The notes under the pieces were generated by a model. It searched no databases. It saw only the letters and a list, made by a program, of their open reading frames with translations, and was not told the origin of the DNA. Shown piece after piece: positions 10,123-60,496 of a stretch of 64,000 nucleotides of DNA; position 1 is the stretch's first letter, and each line of letters begins with the position of its first letter. The translations under genes were made by a program, and so were the position numbers. Location: contig OX597831.1 of the NCBI GenBank assembly GCA_951406725.2, positions 46,314,001 to 46,378,000 on the forward strand, in the 5' to 3' direction. This DNA is from Octopus vulgaris. Lineage: Eukaryota.

Positions 10123-11703
10123 ATGTCGTTTGGGGCTACGAAGACATTGTTTTGATTAATTGAGAAAAATATTTCTTGTATTTTCAGGAGCGTGGGAAAC
10201 CCACAAGGAAGCGGGTGCATCATTGCCAGTAAATACTAGGGACAAGGCCGCAGTTGCCACCCTTGTACCACTGAGGAATTTAACACCAAATCATCAACAG
10301 CGAACATTTGGACATCAAGAAAGAAACATTTCATTGCACGTGCAAGTAACTTAAATTACGAAGTGCCAAGAATGACGCCTTGACCTCTATCCCATCTATT
10401 TAACCTAGGCGAATTTAAGATGTAACTGGAAAATTGCGGATGTGGACAATTTAAATAGGAGACATATACTCATTGGAACTTAAGTCGGGTTTCTAAACTG
10501 CTTACTTATGTGCAACTTATACATAGCATATATACAAGATACCAGATATATTGCGAAATGTATTTTATGGACTAATACACGCTCACTACTTGTGAAAGCA
10601 TAATAAATTATACGATACTCAAGTACTTATATCTACAAAATGCGGTGTGTGCTACATGTTGCATTCAATAGTATACGTTTCAATATTTTTGTATTTTCAT
10701 ATTTCGGTACGCGTGAATATTCACGTATTATGCATTTAATCAATACTGAAAGCTAATTATCCCAACATAGCAAGGCTAACGCAAAGGAAATCAGGAAGAC
10801 AGAAATCACTAAATGAGATGATGCCCCAAATGTGTTTATCTACTAAATTTGAAGTCTCGTATATGTTCGTGTATGCACATGTATTCGCATCCAAAATTGA
10901 CGCGTTTACCAACATCCTAAAAGCAATGTTTGACATGACACCATTGAAGGCAGTGTTATTCCACAGATAAATTTTTTCTCTCCGTTGTTGAAAATTTTGT
11001 ATGCATTCAAAATTATTCAAAATTTATCATTTGGTTATAATATTTTTCTTGATAACCCTAAATTTTATCTTTATACAACATAACAATATTGTTTAAATTA
11101 ATCTCCTATCGTACCCCATGACAAAATTTCCTCTGTTTTATCATTATTGGTTTTATTAGCGTCTTGCCCTTTTAACTGGTAATTAACATCTTGTTTTGAG
11201 ATCTTACACTAGCCAACCTCATTATAGCCAGTTACTTTATACTACTTCAAAATAATCTTGACAAGTTTTATGACTATACCCACTATGTTCTGTCAACTCT
11301 TTCCTGCCTTTTCCTAATAGACACAATTCTCTAGTTTTAGATTTGATAAACAAGACTAATAAATTAAAACTGAACCAAAATCAGTGACACGCTATGACCC
11401 AAACAATTTTTTTTCCTGATGTCTTCTTACTCTATTAGAGTATTTAAGCAAAATTATATTAATGTGTCCGACTGATTAAAAAATTCTATTTATTTATTTA
11501 TGCAGCTGAGAGTAGCCCTGCATTTAAAATGATGTAATGATTGCATTGTTCAATTAAAAGGAGCCGCTTGAAACGGTCGTACTGCATCAGCTCTGGATAT
11601 CCTGTTGCTTTTTTTGATTTCATTCACTTATTTTGAGGTTGTACGGATAGTACCGCACTAATGTTTGGTGCTTCAGCTTAAGTACCTAATTCATCTGAAT
11701 CTC

Positions 11704-11788: not shown

Positions 11789-11789
<1 letters not shown>

Positions 11790-13074
11790 GAGGGACGTTC
11801 AATAAGTAATGCCTCTGACCCACTTGCAGTTGTTTGATCTAGCTGCAATTTTGCATGTGCAATTAGTCTCTATAGAGTAAGTGGCAAATTACAGCTCTGA
11901 ATTAATTGTGGTTTCTGATTTACAGGTGTTTGAACCGAGTCAAGTGTGAAATGGAGCCTGTTGAGTGTCGAGCAGTGATCCGGTTTTTGTATTTGAAAGG
12001 ACGCACACCACGGGAGACTTTTGATGAAATGAAAGTAACTTATGGTGATGATGCCCCATCATATGACCTTGTAAAACGCTGGCATCGTGAATTCAAACAT
12101 GGTCGGAACTCTGTGGAAACAGCTCCCAGAGCTGGTCGCCCCCTTCTGCCATTGATGAGGCATCTGTCCGTCAAGTTGAGGCTGCCATTTTGGAAGATCG
12201 ACGCATAGTTATTCGCCAAATAGCCCATGAGGTCAAGATTAGTACCGGGTCTGTGGAAACTATCATTCATGACCATTTGCATATGCAAAAGGTGTCTGCC
12301 AGATGGATTCCCAGGTTGCTCACGCCTTTCCAGAAGCAAGAACGCGTCAAGTGCTCGAGGGTGAATTTGGAGATGTGCCAAGAAGATGAGTCAAAATTTT
12401 TCAAAAGACTGATTACACAGAATGAAACCTGGGTCCATCACGATGATCCAGAGACCAAATCCCAGTCAATGCAGTGGAAGCACCGTGACTCACCCCCTCC
12501 AAAGAAGGCAAGGGTGCAGCCCTCCGCTGGCAAGGTCATGCTCACAGTCTTCTGGGACCAGGACGGAGTAGTGATGACAGATTTCCTGGCAAAGGGTACC
12601 ACAATTGCAGGAGCCTATTATGCTTCACTTTTGAGGAAATTAAGAGAAGTTATCAAAATCAAGAGGCGGGGCAAGATCAGCAAAGGAATCCTCCTCCTGC
12701 AGGACAACGCTCCGGTCCACAACTCGCTACTCGCCAGATTAGTAGCACAGGCGTATGGCTATGAACTCCTCCCCATCCCCCCTACTTTCCTGACCTTGCA
12801 CCCTCTGATTTTCACCTCTTCCCAATCATGAAGTTGTTTTTGAAAGGAAAGCGTTTCCCAGATGATGCAGCCTTGATTTCTGAAGTGACGTTGAGGTTGG
12901 AGGACCAAGCTAGGTTCTTCTACAAAAACGGTCTCCAGAGCCGCATCAAACGATGGGAGAAATGCGTAACTCTGGGTGGTTCCTATGTAGAAAAAGACTA
13001 ATAACTGTGCCAAGTTTCGTTGCTCTACTCCTATGGGAAGTGGATCAGGGGCATTACTTATAGAACGCCCCTCG
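11789..13074 (+). mobile_element. Mariner (Tc1/mariner, DD34D-type) transposon, defective
   Basis: TIRs CGAGGGACGTTCAATAAGTAATGCCTCTGACCCACTT / AAGTGGATCAGGGGCATTACTTATAGAACGCCCCTCG with TA flanks, 1286 bp. Motifs WIPRLL, (D>N)ETW, QDNAPVH and out-of-frame HPPYFPDLAPSDF; frameshifted. Confidence 0.95.
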
Positions 13075-13081
13075 TATGTCC

Positions 13082-13134
<53 letters not shown>

Positions 13135-14029: not shown

Positions 14030-15560
<1,531 letters not shown>

Positions 15561-17759: not shown

Positions 17760-18211
17760 GGGGCAACAGACACGAACACTCATACATACACGTACGTACG
17801 TACACCTATTGCATGTTTTGTGCATGCATACATGTTCATAAACAGAATCAAATTGAAGGCTGGTTATTGTGGAGGTCGTTGCAGTTCGATTATCATAGAA
17901 CTTATAAGTTTGCAAGCGATGTGAAGTAGAGCTACTGAAGAGTTTTGGGAGTAGATTACGGATAATGACTACAAAATATACAAGATACCAGATATTTTGT
18001 AAAATGTATTTCATGGACTAATACATGCTCACTACATGTGAAAGCATAATAAATTATAAGACACACAAGTACATATAACTACCAAATGCGGTGTGTGTTA
18101 CATGTTGCATTCGATAGTATGTGTTTCTATATTTTTGTCTTTTTATATGTCGGAACGTGTGATTATTCTTGAATAAAGCATTTAATCGCTATAAGCTATA
18201 AGGTGACGAAT

Positions 18212-19294
18212 TCAATGAGTTTCGATATTTTGTCTTTTACATAGCTGGAAAATGTTGTGAAATAAAGAAAGTAATTCATTACGAAACTGCCGATTGAAAA
18301 CCCCGTAGATATACGGGTTAAGAGCAGAGCTGAGATAAGAAGAATAGAATAAAAACTTGTGAATCACTAGATCTTTATCACTTGCAACGTAATCAAAATC
18401 TTCAACAAACAACCTCCAGTATATTCCAATGAAATGTGGTATGTAACTGATAATCCAGATCAAGGTGATAACGAAGAGTATTAAAGTAGCCCAAGCTGGT
18501 GGCACTGGTTGCTTTCTAAGACGCGCAAAAGCGGTAGAACTAATATCTGTAGACTGACCTTCAGGTTTGGAAATGTTAGGAGTTGTGAAGGCTTCACGAA
18601 ACTGATTTGCTTTATTTTTCTTCGCTTTGTAAATTTTCCAAATGCGCATTCCAATTAATATGTATATAATGAAAAGAATGATAAACATACAGCAGCAAAC
18701 GGTTGATCCAGTAGTGTAATAAGCAAAAAAATTTATTGTGCCATTTATATAAGGAGAATATGCACAAACTCCTCCAATATCGCCACATTGTTCCACCATT
18801 TTGTTTTGTGTGCCGGATACAAAAATTGATGGTGCAGACAAAATGAACGCGATGATTGTTAAACATGCTAAAATTGTTTTTGAATTCTTAACGGAAATAC
18901 TTTGTTTAAGAGGTCGACATATGAGAATGTATCTATCGACTGCTATAACAAACACAATGAAAGCTGAATTGGTTATTGCTGCAACTGTCACAGAACGTAT
19001 CATACGACATGCAACATCACTGTGAAACGTATAGGGAAAACGTAGAACTACAATGTCCATAGGTATACATATTATGCAAGTTAGAAAATCACACACCGAG
19101 AGTGCTACAATGAACATATGCATGGCTGCCTCATCAAATTTATAATAGTATATGTATGATACAAAGCAATTTCCAATTGCTCCAAGTGCCATTGAAATTC
19201 CGAGATACGTTATCACTGGAAAATAAACATCCACCATTTTGGTATTTAGTTCTAAAATACTAACGCAAATGTTGACACTGTTGTTTTGCTCCAT
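18212..19294 (-). CDS. Class A (rhodopsin-like) GPCR, copy 1, 360 aa, peptide-receptor-like orphan
   Basis: Seven hydrophobic segments; TM1 GN, TM2 LSVCD, C3.25, DRY, TM6 ISYIP, TM7 NPYIY, helix 8 FRNEL; N-glycosylation sequon NNS; uninterrupted ORF. Confidence 0.95.
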   Translation of the reverse strand: MEQNNSVNICVSILELNTKMVDVYFPVITYLGISMALGAIGNCFVSYIYYYKFDEAAMHMFIVALSVCDFLTCIICIPMDIVVLRFPYTFHSDVACRMIRSVTVAAITNSAFIVFVIAVDRYILICRPLKQSISVKNSKTILACLTIIAFILSAPSIFVSGTQNKMVEQCGDIGGVCAYSPYINGTINFFAYYTTGSTVCCCMFIILFIIYILIGMRIWKIYKAKKNKANQFREAFTTPNISKPEGQSTDISSTAFARLRKQPVPPAWATLILFVITLIWIISYIPHFIGIYWRLFVEDFDYVASDKDLVIHKFLFYSSYLSSALNPYIYGVFNRQFRNELLSLFHNIFQLCKRQNIETH

Positions 19295-19359
19295 TTTCTT
19301 AATATTGTTTGAAACTTTGAGGAAAGTGTTATGATTTGCGATTGTAGACCTCGTACTTC

Positions 19360-19385
19360 CTGGAAAGACAAAGAAAAGTTGTTTG
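19360..19385 (-). promoter_or_regulatory. Splice acceptor 65 nt upstream of GPCR ATG (also 38736-38761, 60262-60287)
   Basis: aacttttctttgtctttccAG|GAAG polypyrimidine tract plus CAG, identical in all three copies. Confidence 0.75.
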
Positions 19386-19454
19386 TAAACAGTTTATTCC
19401 AACAGACTTTATGAAATATTCTGCTTTACATCGAGAGTTAAGTTAACAGATTTT

Positions 19455-28284: not shown

Positions 28285-29853
28285 ATGTCGTATGAGGCTA
28301 CGAAGGCATTGTTTTGATTAATTGAGAAAGTTATTTCTTGTATTTTCAGGAGCGCGGGAAACCCACAAGGAAGCGGGTGCATCATTCCCAGTAAATACTA
28401 GGGACAAGGCCGCAGTTGCCACCCTTGTACCACTGAGGAATTTAACACCAAATCATCAACAGCGAACATTTGGACATCAAGAAAGAAACATTTCATTGCA
28501 CGTGCAAGTAACTTAAATTACAAAGTGCCAAGAATGACGCCTTGACCTCTATCCCATCTATTTAACCTAGGCAAATTCATGATGTAACTGGAAAATTGCG
28601 GATGTGGACAATTTAAATAGGAGACATATACTCATTGGATTTCTAAACTGCATACTTATGTGCAACTTATACATAGCATATATACAAGATACCAGTTATA
28701 TTGCGAAATGTATTTTATGGACTAATACACGCTCACTACTTGTGAAAGCATAATAAATTATACGATACTCAAGTACTTATATCTACAAAATGCGGTGTGT
28801 GCTACATGTTGCATTCAATAGTATACGTTTCAATATTTTTGTATTTTCATATTTCGGTACGCGTGAATATTCACGTATTATGCATTTAATCAATACTGAA
28901 AGCTAATTATCCCAACATAGCAAGGCTAACGCAAAGGAAATCAGGAAGACAGAAATCACTAAATGAGATGATGCCCCAAATGTGTTTATCTACTAATTTT
29001 GAAGTCTCGTATAAGCTCGTGTATGCACATGTATTCGCATCCAAAATTGACGCGTTTACCAACATCCTAAAAGCAATGTTTGACATGATACCATTGAAGG
29101 CAGTGTTATTCCACAGATAAATTTTTTCTCTCCGTTGTTGAAAATTTTGTATGCATTCAAAATTATTCAAAATTTATCATTTGGTTATAATATTTTTCTT
29201 GATAACCCTAAATTTTATCTTTATACAACATAACAATATTGTTTAAATTAATCTCCTATCGTACCCCATGACAAAATTTCCTCTGTTTTATCATTATTGG
29301 TTTTATTAGCGTCTTGCCCTTTTAACTGGTAATTAACATCTTGTTTTGAGATCTTACACTAGCCAACCTCATTATAGCCAGTTACTTTATACTACTTCAA
29401 AATAATCTTGACAAGTTTTATGACTATACCCACTATGTTCTGTCAACTCTTTCCTGCCTTTTCCTAATAGACACAATTCTCTAGTTTTAGATTTGATAAA
29501 CAAGACTAATAAATTAAAACTGAACCAAAATCAGTGACACGCTATGACCCAAACAATTTTTTTTTCCTGATGTCTTCTTACTCTATTAGAGTATTTAAGC
29601 AAAATTATATTAATATGTCCGACTGATTAAAAAATTCTATTTATTTATTTATGCAGCTGAGAGTAGCCCTGCATTTAAAATGATGTAATGATTGCATTGT
29701 TCAATTAAAAGGAGCCGCTTGAAACGGTCGTACTGCATCAGCTCTGGATATCCTGTTGCTTTTTTGATTTCATTCACTTATTTTGAGGTTGTACGGATAG
29801 TACCGCACTAATGTTTGGTGCTTCAGCTTAAGTACCTAATTCATCTGAATCTC

Positions 29854-29926
<73 letters not shown>

Positions 29927-29927
<1 letters not shown>

Positions 29928-31210
29928 GAGGGACGTTCAATAAGTAATGCCTCTGACCCACTTGCAGTTGTTTGATCTAGCTGCAATTTTGCATGTGCAA
30001 TTAGTCTCTATAGAGTAAGTGGCAAATTACAGCTCTGAATTAATTGTGGTTTCTGATTTACAGGTGTTTGAACCGAGTCAAGTGTGAAATGGAGCCTGTT
30101 GAGTGTCGAGCAGTGATCCGGTTTTTGTATTTGAAAGGACGCACACCACGGGAGACTTTTGATGAAATGAAAGTAACTTATGGTGATGATGCCCCATCAT
30201 ATGACCTTGTAAAACGCTGGCATCGTGAATTCAAACATGGTCGGAACTCTGTGGAAACAGCTCCCAGAGCTGGTCGCCCCCTTCTGCCATTGATGAGGCA
30301 TCTGTCCGTCAAGTTGAGGCTGCCATTTTGGAAGATCGACGCATAGTTATTCGCCAAATAGCCCATGAGGTCAAGATTAGTACCGGGTCTGTGGAAACTA
30401 TCATTCATGACCATTTGCATATGCAAAAGGTGTCTGCCAGATGGATTCCCAGGTTGCTCACGCCTTTCCAGAAGCAAGAACGCGTCAAGTGCTCGAGGGT
30501 GAATTTGGAGATGTGCCAAGAAGATGAGTCAAAATTTTTCAAAAGACTGATTACACAGAATGAAACCTGGGTCCATCACGATGATCCAGAGACCAAATCC
30601 CAGTCAATGCAGTGGAAGCACCGTGACTCACCCCTCCAAAGAAGGCAAGGGTGCAGCCCTCCGCTGGCAAGGTCATGCTCACAGTCTTCTGGGACCAGGA
30701 CGGAGTAGTGATGACAGATTTCCTGGCAAAGGGTACCACAATTGCAGGAGCCTATTATGCTTCACTTTTGAGGAAATTAAGAGAAGTTATCAAAATCAAG
30801 AGGCGGGGCAAGATCAGCAAAGGAATCCTCCTCCTGCAGGACAACGCTCCGGTCCACAACTCGCTTGTCGCCAGATTAGTAGCACAGGCGTATGGCTATG
30901 AACTCCTCCCCATCCCCCCTACTTTCCTGACCTTGCACCCTCTGATTTTCACCTCTTCCCAATATGAAGTTGTTTTTGAAAGGAAAGCGTTTCCCAGATG
31001 ATGCAGCCTTGATTTCTGAAGTGACGTTGAGGTTGGAGGACCAAGCTGGGTTCTTCTACAAAAACGGTCTCCAGAGCCGCATCAAACGATGGGAGAAATG
31101 CGTAACTCTGGGTGGTTCCTATGTAGAAAAAGACTAATAACTGTGCCAAGTTTCGTTGCTCTACTCTTATGGGAAGTGGATCAGGGGCATTACTTATAGA
31201 ACGCCCCTCG
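29927..31210 (+). mobile_element. Mariner transposon, defective (duplicated with the unit)
   Basis: Same TIRs, same site and shared inactivating lesions as 11789-13074. Confidence 0.95.
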
Positions 31211-31217
31211 TATGTCC

Positions 31218-31267
<50 letters not shown>

Positions 31268-32101: not shown

Positions 32102-34170
<2,069 letters not shown>

Positions 34171-37587: not shown

Positions 37588-38670
37588 TCAATGAGTTTCG
37601 ATATTTTGTTTTTTACATAGCTGGAAAATGTTGTGAAATAAAGCAAGTAATTCATTACGAAACTGCCGATTGAAAACTCCGTAGATATACGGGTTAAGAG
37701 CAGAGCTGAGATAAGAAGAATAGAATAAAAACTTGTGAATCACTAGATCTTTATCACTTGCAACGTAATCAAAATCTTCAACAAACAACCTCCAGTATAC
37801 TCCAATGAAATGTGGTATGTAACTGATAATCCAGATCAAGGTGATAACGAAGAGTATTAAACTAGCCCAAAGTGGTGGCACTGGTTGCTTTCTAAGACGC
37901 GCAAAAGCGGTAGAACTAATATCTGTAGACTGACCTTCAGGTTTGGAAATGTTAGGAGTTGTGAAGGCTTCACGAAACTGATTTGCTTTATTTTTCTTCG
38001 CTTTGTAAATTTTCCAAATGCGCATTCCAATTAATATGTATATAATGAAAAGAATGATAAACATACAACAGCAAACGGTTGATCCAGTAGTGTAATAAGC
38101 AAAAAAATTTATTGTGCCATTTATATCAGGAGAATATGCACAAACTCCTCCAATATCGCCACATTGTTCCACCATTTTGTGTTGTGTGCCGGATACAAAA
38201 ATTGATGGTGCAGACAAAATGAACGCGATGATTGTTAAACATGCTAAAATTGTTTTTGAATTCTTAACGGAAATACTTTGCTTAAGAGGTCGACATATGA
38301 GAATGTATCTATCGACTGCTATAACAAACACAATTAAAGCTGAATTGATTATTGCTGCAGCTATCACACCACGTATCACACGACATGCAACATCACTGTG
38401 AAACGTATAGGGAAAACGTAGAACTACAATGTCCATAGGTATACATATTATGCAAGTTAGAAAATCACACACCGAGAGTGCTACAATGAACATATGCATG
38501 GCTGTCTCATCAAATTTATAATAGTATATGTATGATACAAAGCAATTTCCAATTGCTCCAAGTGCCATTGAAATTCCGAGATACGTTATCACTGGAAAAT
38601 AAACATCCACCATTTTAGTATTTAGTTCTAAAATACTAACGCAAATGTTGACACTGTTGTTTTGCTCCAT
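37588..38670 (-). CDS. Class A GPCR, copy 2, 360 aa
   Basis: Intact ORF; 14 aa differences from copy 1; same motifs; AATAAA ~130 nt past the stop (forward TTTATT ~37452). Confidence 0.95.
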   Translation of the reverse strand: MEQNNSVNICVSILELNTKMVDVYFPVITYLGISMALGAIGNCFVSYIYYYKFDETAMHMFIVALSVCDFLTCIICIPMDIVVLRFPYTFHSDVACRVIRGVIAAAIINSALIVFVIAVDRYILICRPLKQSISVKNSKTILACLTIIAFILSAPSIFVSGTQHKMVEQCGDIGGVCAYSPDINGTINFFAYYTTGSTVCCCMFIILFIIYILIGMRIWKIYKAKKNKANQFREAFTTPNISKPEGQSTDISSTAFARLRKQPVPPLWASLILFVITLIWIISYIPHFIGVYWRLFVEDFDYVASDKDLVIHKFLFYSSYLSSALNPYIYGVFNRQFRNELLALFHNIFQLCKKQNIETH

Positions 38671-38819
38671 TTTCTTAATATTGTTTGAAACTTTGAGGAA
38701 AGTGTTATGATTTGCGATTGTAGACCTCGTACTTCCTGGAAAGACAAAGAAAAGTTGTTTGTAAACAGTTTATTCCAACAGACTTTATGAAATATTCTGC
38801 TTTACATCGAGAGTTAAGT

Positions 38820-49793: not shown

Positions 49794-49937
49794 TCAAGGA
49801 GTTCTGATATTTTGTCATTCTCATAACTGGAAAATTTTGCGAAATGAAGTCAGCCATTCATTAGAAAACTGTCGACTGAAAAGTCCCTAAATAAGAGCAG
49901 AGCTGAGATGAAAAGAATAGGTTAATAACACTTGGAT
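49794..49937 (-). pseudogene. GPCR TM7/C-tail relic, unit 3
   Basis: Copy of 9979-10122. The adjacent 49720-49760 resembles the 3' flank of the intact GPCRs (37511-37555). Confidence 0.85.
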
Positions 49938-50504
49938 ATGTCGTTTGGGGCTACGAAGACAGTGTTTTGATTAATTGAGAAAAATATTTCTTGTATTTTC
50001 AGGAGCGTGGGAAGCAGGTGCATCATTGCCAGGAAATACTAGGGACAAGGCCGCAGTTGCCACCCTTGTACCACTGAGGAATTTAACACCAAATCATCAA
50101 CAGCGAACATTTGGACATCAAGAAAGAAACATTTCATTGCACGTGCAAAGCAACTTAAATTACGAAGTGCCAAGAATGACGCCTTGACCTCTATCCCATC
50201 TAATTAACCTAGGCGAATTTATGAGGTAACTGGAAAATTGCGGATGTGGACAATATAAATAGGAGACATATACTCATTGGATTTCTAAACTGCATACTTA
50301 TGTGCAACTTATACATAGCATATATACAAGATGCCAGATATATTGCGAAATGTATTTTATGGACTAATACATGCTCACTACTTGTGAAAGCATAATTAAT
50401 TATACGATACTCAAGTACTTATATCTACAAAATGCGGTGTGGTGCTACCTGTTGCATTCAATAGTATACGTTTCAATATTTTTGTATTTTCATATTTCGG
50501 TACG

Positions 50505-50537
50505 TTAGGGTTAGGGTTAGGGTTAGGGTTAGGGTTA
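50505..50537 (+). repeat. Interstitial telomeric sequence (TTAGGG)5TTA
   Basis: Five perfect hexamers; absent at the paralogous sites 10712 and 28862. Confidence 0.95.
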
Positions 50538-51526
50538 TATTCACGTATTATGCATTTAATCAATACTGAAAGCTAAGTATCCCAACATAGCAAAGAAATC
50601 AGGAAGACAGAAATCACTAAATGTGATGATGCCCCAAATGTGTTTATCTACTAATTTTGAAGTCTCGTATAAGCTCGTGTATGCACATGTATTCGCATCA
50701 AAATTGGACGCGTTTACCAACATCCTAAAAGGCAAGTTTTGACATGACACCATTGAAGGCACTGTTATTCCACAAATAAATTTCTCTCTCCGTTTTTGAA
50801 AATTTTGGTATGCATTCAAAATTATTCAAAATTTATCATTTGGTTATAATATTTTTCTTGATAACCCTAAATTTTATCTTTATACAACATAACAATATTG
50901 TTTGAAATAATCTCCTATCGTACTCCATGGTAAAATTTCCTCTGTATTATCATTATTGGTTTTATTAGCGTCTTGCCCCTTAACTCTTGCCCCCTTAACT
51001 GGTAATTAACATCTTGTTTTGAGATCTTACACTAGACAACCTCATTATAACCAGTTACTTTATACTACTTCAAAATAATGTTGACATGTTTTATGACTAT
51101 ACCCATTATGTTTGGTCAACTCTTTCCTGCCTTTTCCTAATAGACACAAATCTCTAGTTTTAGATTTGATAAACAAGACTAATAAATTAAAACTGAACCA
51201 AAATCAATGACACGCTATGACCCAAACAATTTTTTTCCTGATGTCTTCTTACTCTATTAGAGTATTTAAGCAAAATTATATTAATATGTCCGACTGATTA
51301 AAAAAAAATTCTATTTATTTATTTATGCAGCTGAGGATAGCCCTGCATTTAATTTGATGTAATGATTGCATTGTTCAATTAAAAGGAGCCGCTTGAAACG
51401 GTCGTACTGCATCAGCTCTGGATATCCTGTTGCTTTTTGGATTTCATTCACTTATTTTGAGGTTGTACGCATAATACCGCACTAATGTTTGGTGCTTCAA
51501 CATAAGTACATAATTTATCTGAATCT

Positions 51527-59111: not shown

Positions 59112-60196
59112 TCAATGAGTTTCGATATTATGTTTTTTTTACATTGCTGGAAAATGTTGTGAAATAAAGCAAGTAATTCATTCCGAAACTGCCGATTGAA
59201 AACCCGTAGATATACGGGTTAAGAGCAGAGCTGAGATAAGAAGAATAGAATAAAAACTTGTGAATCACTAGATCTTTATCACTTGCAACGTCATCAAAAT
59301 CTTCAACAAACAACCTCCAGTATACTCCAATGAAATGTGGTATGTAACTGATAATCCAGATCAAGGTGATAACGAAGAGTTTTAAAGTAGCCCAAGCTGG
59401 TGGCACTGGTTCCCTTCTAAGACGCGCAAAAGCGGTAGAACTAATATCTGTAGACTGACCTTCAGGTTTGGAAATGTTAGGAGTTGTGAAGGCTTCACGA
59501 AACTGATTTGCTTTATTTTTCTTCGCTTTGTAAATTTTCCAAATGCGCATTCCAATTAATATGTATATAATGAAAAGAATGATAAACATACAACAGCAAA
59601 CGGTTGATGCAGCAGTGTAATAAGGAAAAAAATTATTGTGCCATTTATATAAGGAGAAAATGCACAAATCCTCCAATATCGCCACATTGTTCCACCATTT
59701 TGTTTTGTGTGCCGGATACAAAAAATGCTGGTGCAGACAAAATGAACGCGATGATTGTTAAACATGCTAAAATTGTTTTTGAATTCTTAACGGAAATATT
59801 TTGCTTAAGGGGTCGACATATGAGAATGTATCTATCGACTGCTATAACAAACACAATGAAAGCTGAATTGATTATTGCTGCAGCTATCACACCACGTATC
59901 ACACGACATGCAACATCACTGTGAAATGTATAGGGAAAACGTAGAACTACAATGTCCATAGGTATACATATTATGCAAGTTAGAAAATCACACACCGAGA
60001 GTGCTATAATGAACATATGCATGGCTGTCTCATCAAATTTATAATAGTATATGTATGATACAAAGCAATTTCCAATTGCTCCAAGTGCCATTGAAATTCC
60101 GAGATACGTTATCACTGGAAAATAAACATCCACCATTTTAGTATTTAGTTCTTCTAAAATAATAACGCAAATGTTGACACTGTTGTTTTGCTCCAT
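59112..60196 (-). pseudogene. Class A GPCR, copy 3, frameshifted (pseudogene or sequencing error)
   Basis: Full-length homolog with 1-bp deletions near 59668, 59633 and 59203 and a +2 in a T-run near 59135; also a 3-bp insertion near the N-terminus. Confidence 0.75.
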
Positions 60197-60496
60197 TTTC
60201 TTAATATTGTTTGAAACTTTGAGGAAAGTGTTATGATTTGCGATTGTAGACCTCGTACTTCCTGGAAAGACAAAGAAAAGTTGTTTGTAAACAGTTTATT
60301 CCAACAGACTTTATGAAAAATTCTGCTTTACATCGAGAGTTAAGTTAACAGATTTTACAGTTCTATATTTAAGAGATGTGGAATTATGTACATTATTTAC
60401 ATTTGACGGATATCAGTCAAGATAGCATAAGAAAACATTAGATTTATAAGCCCTAAAATTCACTCCATAATTACCCGCGGACATATGGCGTAGTTA

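What the first reader, a model, noticed from the sequence alone, without database searches (positions are those of the whole stretch)
50495..50550. Copy-specific (TTAGGG)5 insertion replacing one arm of a perfect palindrome
Seen: units 1 and 2 read TACG-CGTGAATATTCACG (14-bp palindrome at 10712-10725 and 28862-28875). Unit 3 reads TACG-(TTAGGG)5-TT-ATATTCACG, so CGTGA is replaced by perfect telomeric repeats with no precursor seed. Established: short interstitial telomeric sequences can arise by telomerase or telomere capture at double-strand breaks, and TTAGGG is the molluscan telomere repeat. Inference: a recent break-healing event, with the pre-insertion state preserved in sister copies.
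Basis: partly seen in the sequence, partly recalled or inferred. Interest (0 to 1): 0.7.

Follow-up and report, generated by a model that had tools for sequence, protein, structure and literature searches.

The report
Telomere patch in one gene copy
One copy of a repeated stretch of DNA, probably from an octopus, carries 32 letters of chromosome-end repeat in place of five letters that its eight sister copies still have, likely a scar left when a DNA break was patched, probably by telomerase; this kind of scar is well described in mammals, and similar ones occur elsewhere in this genome.

Summary
Confirmed. (TTAGGG)5TT (50505-50536) replaces CGTGA in 1 of 16 paralogous copies in a tandem GPCR-gene array. 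Eight close sisters keep the empty site, and the filled copy is nested among them, so this is a gain. There is no seed. One public run shows a graph fork exactly at the junction at about one-copy depth (letters not shown; may be the source sample). The genome has a TERT gene and TTAGGG-type ends. The tract is one of an estimated ~85 (wide range) lone tracts of four or more units; most such tracts sit inside MITE-like repeats. In 8 lone tracts with a comparable empty site, 6 have in-register bases at the priming junction (25% expected), with short deletions, as in mammalian short interstitial telomeric sequences. Here the overlap is only one base per side. Telomerase versus capture of telomeric DNA is unresolved. 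The palindrome is young, folds weakly and is absent at 5 other sites tested, so it is probably incidental. "Recent" is only bounded (after ~2.5% divergence). Verdict: new member of a known kind; I found no filled-versus-empty study for an invertebrate. The scan reported the same kind in a yeast genome (e1-9952722).

The parts
50505..50536 (+). Inserted 32 nt, (TTAGGG)5TT, perfect; present in 1 of 16 paralogous copies
50504..50504 (+). G shared by the empty site and the repeat register (1 nt in register at the 3' end of the broken G-strand)
   Evidence: k5=1 against the close sisters
50537..50537 (+). A shared by the right flank and the repeat register (1 nt)
   Evidence: k3=1 against the close sisters
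10712..10725 (.). Empty site in unit 1: 14-bp palindrome; 10712-10716 (CGTGA) is what unit 3 lost
28862..28875 (.). Empty site in unit 2; run X3's contig graph forks between 28861 and 28862
17976..18187 (+). Older-type paralogue of the same flank, just past the stop of an intact receptor gene; empty and without the palindrome
18215..19393 (-). Single-exon rhodopsin-family GPCR reading frame (7tm_1) of the array
37591..38769 (-). Second intact GPCR copy (96% amino-acid identity)
49800..49937 (-). C-terminal remnant of a GPCR copy near the site; no receptor frame was found directly upstream of the site in this unit, so the site is probably in an orphaned non-coding 3' flank
50591..50592 (+). Private 12-bp deletion of the filled copy, one of several private changes that bound its age

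Best explanation
The tract is a short interstitial telomeric sequence: 32 letters of TTAGGG repeat stand in place of five letters in one copy of a receptor-gene array, likely inserted in one step while a germline double-strand break was repaired, and probably written by telomerase. Inferred steps: (1) a break within or beside CGTGA, with 5 bp trimmed; (2) the left 3' end, ending in G, primes on the telomerase RNA template and gains about five repeats; (3) instead of becoming a telomere, the new tail is joined to the right end, possibly through the shared A, and filled in by end joining. Shown: the filled and empty states, the direction (gain), the deletion, the one-base overlaps, the TERT gene, and the same junction pattern at other lone tracts. 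It is most likely a neutral scar in non-coding DNA.
For: Tract in 1 of 16 copies. The filled copy is nested with bootstrap 97 among empty sisters, with L009 and older paralogues outside. No seed; reversed-hexamer controls are 0 in three genome searches. Run X3: a contig ends exactly at the junction, with two 31-mers, empty allele at depth 550 and another letter at depth 95, against error words at 6-8; about one copy in seven. C13 begins with a telomere-like array whose inner part is (CCCTAA)n; the outer TGGCC part matches a pattern used for nanopore telomere reads (PMC10769321). TERT exons on C27 (E 2.9e-5, over cut-off, E 3.2e-15 to solved TERT). Of 59 tracts examined (of 64), 8 had a two-sided empty comparator: 6 of 8 have at least 1 in-register base at the priming junction and 4 of 8 at least 2, against 24.6% and 6.1% expected, p about 0.004 and 0.0008. 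Deletions are about 0-11 bp. Mammals: 31 of 40 loci in register and 30% with a short deletion in horse (PMC7215372 section 9); 67-80% in register in primates and rodents (PMC2246262).
Against: At this locus the overlap is one base per side, which chance gives 6% of the time. No telomerase-RNA fragment accompanies this tract, and none is shared among the 80-nt flanks of 64 tracts, so nothing points uniquely to telomerase. Overlaps at the far junction are as common (6-8 of 8, partly selected by my pattern), which fits templated capture equally. L231 has 0 in-register bases, and L041 has 0 against 6 of 7 comparators. Most comparators are 75-97% identical family members, not true ancestors, and L104 and L245 rest on one each. 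No contig showed the inserted letters. X3's contig 9 runs unbroken across the right junction. X1, X5, X15 and X6 cross the empty site with no fork, but contigs drop one-copy variants. A snail telomerase with an 8-nt template has low repeat processivity in vitro (PMC8480181 section 8), which makes five repeats in one go less easy.
Confidence: 0.58

Rival explanations
1. Same one-step insertion at a repaired break, but copied or captured from existing telomeric DNA (a telomere, a long internal array, or the TTAGGG tract inside a MITE) by microhomology-mediated end joining, without telomerase.
For: Donors are plentiful: 23 of the first 26 distinct (TTAGGG)4 loci on C1 are in repeat families, some with perfect tracts of 40-41 nt (L056, L057). 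Overlaps occur at both junctions. Capture is the alternative named in PMC2246262.
Against: This tract is perfect and carries none of the MITE flank or variant units seen. In vertebrates, telomerase-RNA fragments beside some tracts tie the class to telomerase (PMC8537989 abstract).
Confidence: 0.3
2. Assembly or basecalling artefact.
For: The assembly holds telomere-associated TGGCC/CCAGG and TTAAAA arrays typical of nanopore miscalls (PMC9414165; PMC10769321). The inserted letters were not seen in any contig.
Against: The reported errors turn telomeric repeat into other repeats, not unique DNA into TTAGGG. X3 forks at exactly this base at depth 95. Lone tracts elsewhere have biologically patterned junctions.
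Confidence: 0.05
3. Microsatellite growth by slippage from a seed.
For: The genome is rich in microsatellites. One or two other loci (L248, perhaps L041) have a seed in their empty relatives.
Against: No seed in any of 15 empty copies here. Five bases are lost, not duplicated. The reversed hexamer of equal composition never forms 3-4 unit tracts.
Confidence: 0.02
4. The tract is ancestral and was lost from the sisters, or it is the remnant of an excised TTAGGG-bearing MITE.
For: MITEs with internal TTAGGG exist (29-nt terminal inverted repeats).
Against: 15 of 15 other copies, including outgroups, are empty. No terminal-repeat or MITE flank sequence at the site. Excision footprints keep ends rather than the middle (established knowledge, recalled).
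Confidence: 0.02

Closest known systems
Short interstitial telomeric sequences (s-ITS) of primates, rodents and horse (PMC2246262 passages; PMC7215372 passages and section 9; review PMC6410037 passages)
   Same: Few perfect TTAGGG units at an internal site, one-step insertion against an empty locus, short deletion, bases in register; similar density (about 85 estimated here, 142 in horse).
   Different: Host is a mollusc; the empty state comes from paralogues in the same genome rather than orthologues; most TTAGGG tracts in this genome are transposon-borne and must be filtered out first.
TERC-ITS (PMC8537989 abstract; PMC2246262 passages)
   Same: Telomeric repeat inserted at a break.
   Different: No extra retrotranscribed fragment here, so the direct telomerase signature is missing.
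Chromosome healing / neotelomere formation (PMC2246262 passage; bioRxiv 10.1101/2022.10.31.514589 seen in a search listing only)
   Same: Telomeric repeat added to a 3' end with microhomology.
   Different: Here the distal end was rejoined; no new chromosome end.
TTAGGG-bearing MITE-like family of this genome (L030, L055)
   Same: Contains short perfect TTAGGG runs.
   Different: About 420 bp with 29-nt terminal inverted repeats and fixed flanks; none of that is at this site.

Membership tests
short ITS (break-inserted) | Short array of the host's telomeric repeat at an internal site | tested here: met
   34-nt perfect tract at C18:46.36 Mb of an 84-Mb contig
short ITS (break-inserted) | TTAGGG is the host telomere repeat | tested here: met
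   Indirect. Of 40 contig ends read, 2 end in telomere-like arrays; C13 has (CCCTAA)n inside a TGGCC array. TTAGGG is the only experimentally determined cephalopod motif (PMC13218726). 38 of 40 ends show no such array.
short ITS (break-inserted) | Inserted in one step relative to an empty ancestral site, no seed | tested here: met
   15 of 15 other copies empty; filled copy nested
short ITS (break-inserted) | End-joining type change at the site | tested here: met
   5-bp deletion
short ITS (break-inserted) | [quoted passage not shown] | tested here: met
   1 nt here (25% by chance); 6 of 8 across lone tracts
short ITS (break-inserted) | Dependence on telomerase activity | not testable with these tools
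   TERT gene present; activity at breaks untested
TERC-ITS | Fragment copied from telomerase RNA beside the repeats | tested here: not met
   No non-repeat bases inserted; no shared unique flank among 64 tracts
TTAGGG-bearing MITE | Terminal inverted repeats and family flanks around the tract | tested here: not met
   Flanks are collinear with the empty paralogues; family described
slippage microsatellite | Pre-existing units that grow stepwise | tested here: not met
programmed breakage site with telomere addition (feature list recalled) | Conserved palindromic motif shared by sites, with a new chromosome end | tested here: not met
   Palindrome absent from 7 older paralogues and from 5 other empty sites; the DNA continues on both sides

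The most novel reading that the evidence does not exclude
A palindrome that arose recently by point changes made a fragile hairpin; a structure-specific cut removed exactly its 5-bp stem arm (CGTGA pairs with TCACG around an ATAT loop), and telomerase patched the break before rejoining. The lone tracts of this genome would then be a readable record of telomerase acting in germline break repair in a cephalopod, from which its template register could be inferred.
Probability: 0.1. Interest if true: 0.55.

Novelty: new member of a known kind. Interest (0 to 1): 0.3.

Why it matters
The single insertion is probably a neutral scar. Its value is as a clean example: eight near-identical sister copies preserve the pre-break sequence, and seven more lone tracts with empty relatives show the junction pattern that in mammals is taken as a sign of telomerase at breaks. 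That extends a pattern documented by sequence comparison in vertebrates to a mollusc; searches returned no such filled-versus-empty study for an invertebrate, though the library lacks most subscription journals. It also warns that in this genome most TTAGGG hits are transposon-borne and that long arrays are partly miscalled.

Tried and rejected
Telomerase-RNA read-through (shared TATAC after GGGTTA at L034, L099; extra TATA at L093): rejected. The letters after GGGTTA in the 100 listed of 183 matches are diverse (by eye about 5 of 48 lone-looking tracts continue TATA, then diverge), and L093 is as well explained by a decayed CpG. Shared telomerase-RNA fragments: none in 64 tracts' flanks. A different telomere repeat (CCAGG)n: considered after and judged a nanopore miscall, because it occurs only in long arrays, several of them beside TTAGGG/TTAAAA arrays, gaps or contig ends, and is mixed with CCAGGG, and TGGCC is a listed nanopore telomere pattern; not tested on short reads. 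Palindrome as cause: folds no better than shuffles (z -0.42); 0 of 5 other empty sites tested have a perfect arm over 2 bp (L231 and L245 were found later and not tested); but a random site touches such a palindrome only 0.2-0.6% of the time, so it is not excluded. Pfam Telomerase_RBD search was blank and uninformative. Empty-site searches for L121 (single copy) and L063 (one flank only) gave nothing. No fork in X1, X5, X15, X6 is not counted as absence, because one-copy SNPs of the filled copy are also missing from all four runs. End-register bias (12 of 18 ending GGGTTA, counted by eye) is confounded by my search pattern and not used. The supplement of PMC8480181 held as text had no hit for octopus, cephalopod or sepia; picture tables could hide one.

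Full report
OBSERVATION. The window holds about three units of an 18-21 kb tandem array, each with a single-exon rhodopsin-family receptor gene (7tm_1, E 6e-27). Units 1 and 2 read TACG-CGTGA-ATATTCACG; unit 3 reads TACG-(TTAGGG)5TT-ATATTCACG. The inserted 32 nt are 50505-50536. The flanking G and A continue the repeat, giving a 34-nt perfect tract. Five of the seven bases of the palindrome's left arm are gone.

DIRECTION AND AGE. A genome search found 25 matches, all in this array. I aligned the 16 that cover the site: the tract is in 1 of 16; 8 close sisters have CGTGA; 7 older paralogues are also empty but lack the palindrome. In a tree of 12 copies the filled copy is nested, bootstrap 97, among empty ones, so this is a gain. 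The filled copy differs by about 2.5% from its nearest sisters, a figure that includes about four columns forced against the tract, and has private indels. A 32-nt tract would stay perfect over such a branch about 68% of the time, so 'recent' is bounded, not shown. In older paralogues L010-L012 the site lies about 480 bp past the stop of an intact receptor. In the filled unit no receptor frame was found directly upstream, so the site is probably orphaned non-coding flank.

IS IT REAL? Laid on the empty unit, run X3 forks exactly after the G of TACG: a contig ends there, followed by one 31-mer with the empty-site C (depth 550) and one with another letter (depth 95), while error words have depth 6-8. 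That is about one copy in seven. Limits: the letter is not shown, X3 may be the sample assembled, and its next contig crosses the right junction unbroken (I infer graph simplification). X1, X5, X15 and X6 cross without a fork; this is not evidence of absence.

HOST MACHINERY. Of 40 contig ends read, two end in long arrays. C13 has about 290 bp of ragged (CCCTAA)n inside 1.1 kb of (CTGGC)n; C10 ends in (CCAGG)n. Nanopore miscalls TTAGGG as TTAAAA and CCCTAA as CCCTGG (PMC9414165, passages), and TGGCC runs are used as a telomere-read pattern (PMC10769321, one passage). I therefore read these as miscalled TTAGGG telomeres. TTAGGG is the only experimentally determined cephalopod motif (PMC13218726, passages). 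TERT exons lie on C27.

HOW COMMON. (TTAGGG)4 has 13,740 overlapping matches and its reversed control 0. Of the first 26 distinct loci on C1 (to 98.7 Mb), 3 are lone tracts; the rest lie in repeat families, chiefly a ~420-bp element with 29-nt terminal inverted repeats. That scales to roughly 85 lone tracts of four or more units, a very rough figure from three counts; horse has 142 ITS loci. Further patterned searches gave 64 candidate tracts including this one; 59 without neighbouring repeat were examined and 8 had a two-sided empty comparator in the DNA I held (with gapped views). In-register bases at the priming junction: this site 1, L040 2, L068 3, L093 2 (read; the script scores it 0 because no bases lie between the flanks), L104 1, L245 3, L231 0, L041 0 (4 against one of seven comparators). 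That is 6 of 8 with at least one and 4 of 8 with at least two, against 24.6% and 6.1% by simulation; p about 0.004 and 0.0008. Deletions are about 0-11 bp. The comparators are family members, not true ancestors, and the far-junction overlaps are partly selected by my patterns.

MECHANISM. Shown: one-step replacement of 5 bp by perfect telomeric repeat, one shared base at each end, no seed, no transposon ends. Inferred: a germline double-strand break, extension of the left 3' end, and rejoining. I favour telomerase as the writer (about 0.58 overall), on the class-level register excess, the purity of the tract and the vertebrate precedent (PMC2246262 passages; PMC7215372 passages and section 9; PMC8537989 abstract). 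Capture of existing telomeric DNA remains a strong rival (0.3): donors abound, both junctions show overlap, no telomerase-RNA fragment was found, and a snail telomerase is poorly processive in vitro (PMC8480181 section 8).

THE PALINDROME. It is young and folds no better than shuffles. None of five other empty sites tested has one, and the window has 7 such non-simple palindromes. Yet the lost bases equal the predicted 5-bp stem arm, within one base of ambiguity, and a random site touches a 14-bp palindrome only 0.2-0.6% of the time. With on the order of a hundred lone tracts, one such case is not surprising. I give a causal role about 10%.

COMPARISON AND VERDICT. It meets every testable feature of a break-inserted short ITS (review PMC6410037, passages) and fails those of TERC-ITS, MITE, slippage microsatellite and programmed breakage site. 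Searches (listings only, beyond the papers named) returned mammalian and other vertebrate filled-versus-empty studies and none for invertebrates; most subscription journals are outside the library. The scan noted the same kind in a yeast genome (e1-9952722; not checked by me). New member of a known kind; interest 0.3.

Noticed in passing
L148 (C13:1-1500), L165 (C10 end), L176-L192, L065-L067, L079: Long (CCAGG)n/(CCTGG)n and TTAAAA arrays beside TTAGGG arrays, gaps and contig ends; most likely nanopore-miscalled telomeres. Internal ones (C6:34.95 Mb, C17:54.14 Mb beside a 100-N gap, C5:28.4 Mb) may mark misjoined chromosome ends. A real repeat change was not excluded on short reads.
   Followed up: partly
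L030:1400-1821, L055:1399-1822 and many of L026-L055: Abundant ~420-bp MITE-like family with 29-nt terminal inverted repeats and an internal TTAGGG tract; at least two further repeat families also carry TTAGGG runs (e.g. L052/L048, L042/L131, L237/L244).
   Followed up: partly
G000:C27:8315518-8315682 and L254:1815-2111 (minus strand): TERT exons: C-terminal domain and reverse-transcriptase motifs B'-C.
   Followed up: partly
L232 (C7:397905): Lone TTAGGG tract between the arms of a perfect inverted duplication of at least 34 bp, like the complex horse ITS rearrangements.
   Followed up: no
L120 (C2:146375734): 34-nt perfect TTAGGG tract in the middle of a (TA)n microsatellite.
   Followed up: no
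L222, L230, L233, L248: Tracts whose left flank is a common repeat cut short and whose right flank is unrelated, suggesting larger deletions or rearrangements joined through the tract; L248's empty relatives hold a 7-nt seed.
   Followed up: no
L058, L060, L061, L135: Longer internal TTAGGG arrays (about 200-800 bp) with variant units in unique-looking flanks.
   Followed up: no
window 11789-13083 and 29927-31219: Mariner-type transposase (PF01359) beside a (TA)n run in units 1 and 2, absent from unit 3.
   Followed up: no
window 14063-14239 and copies at 32198, 32666, 33207, 33684, 52615, 54378, 55215: A 177-bp block between (TTA)n runs is present once in unit 1, four times in unit 2 and three times in unit 3, at 99-100% identity.
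   Followed up: no
window 59131-60295: Third receptor copy is frameshifted; the array on C18:46.15-46.41 Mb mixes intact, broken and ~70%-identical older receptor copies.
   Followed up: partly
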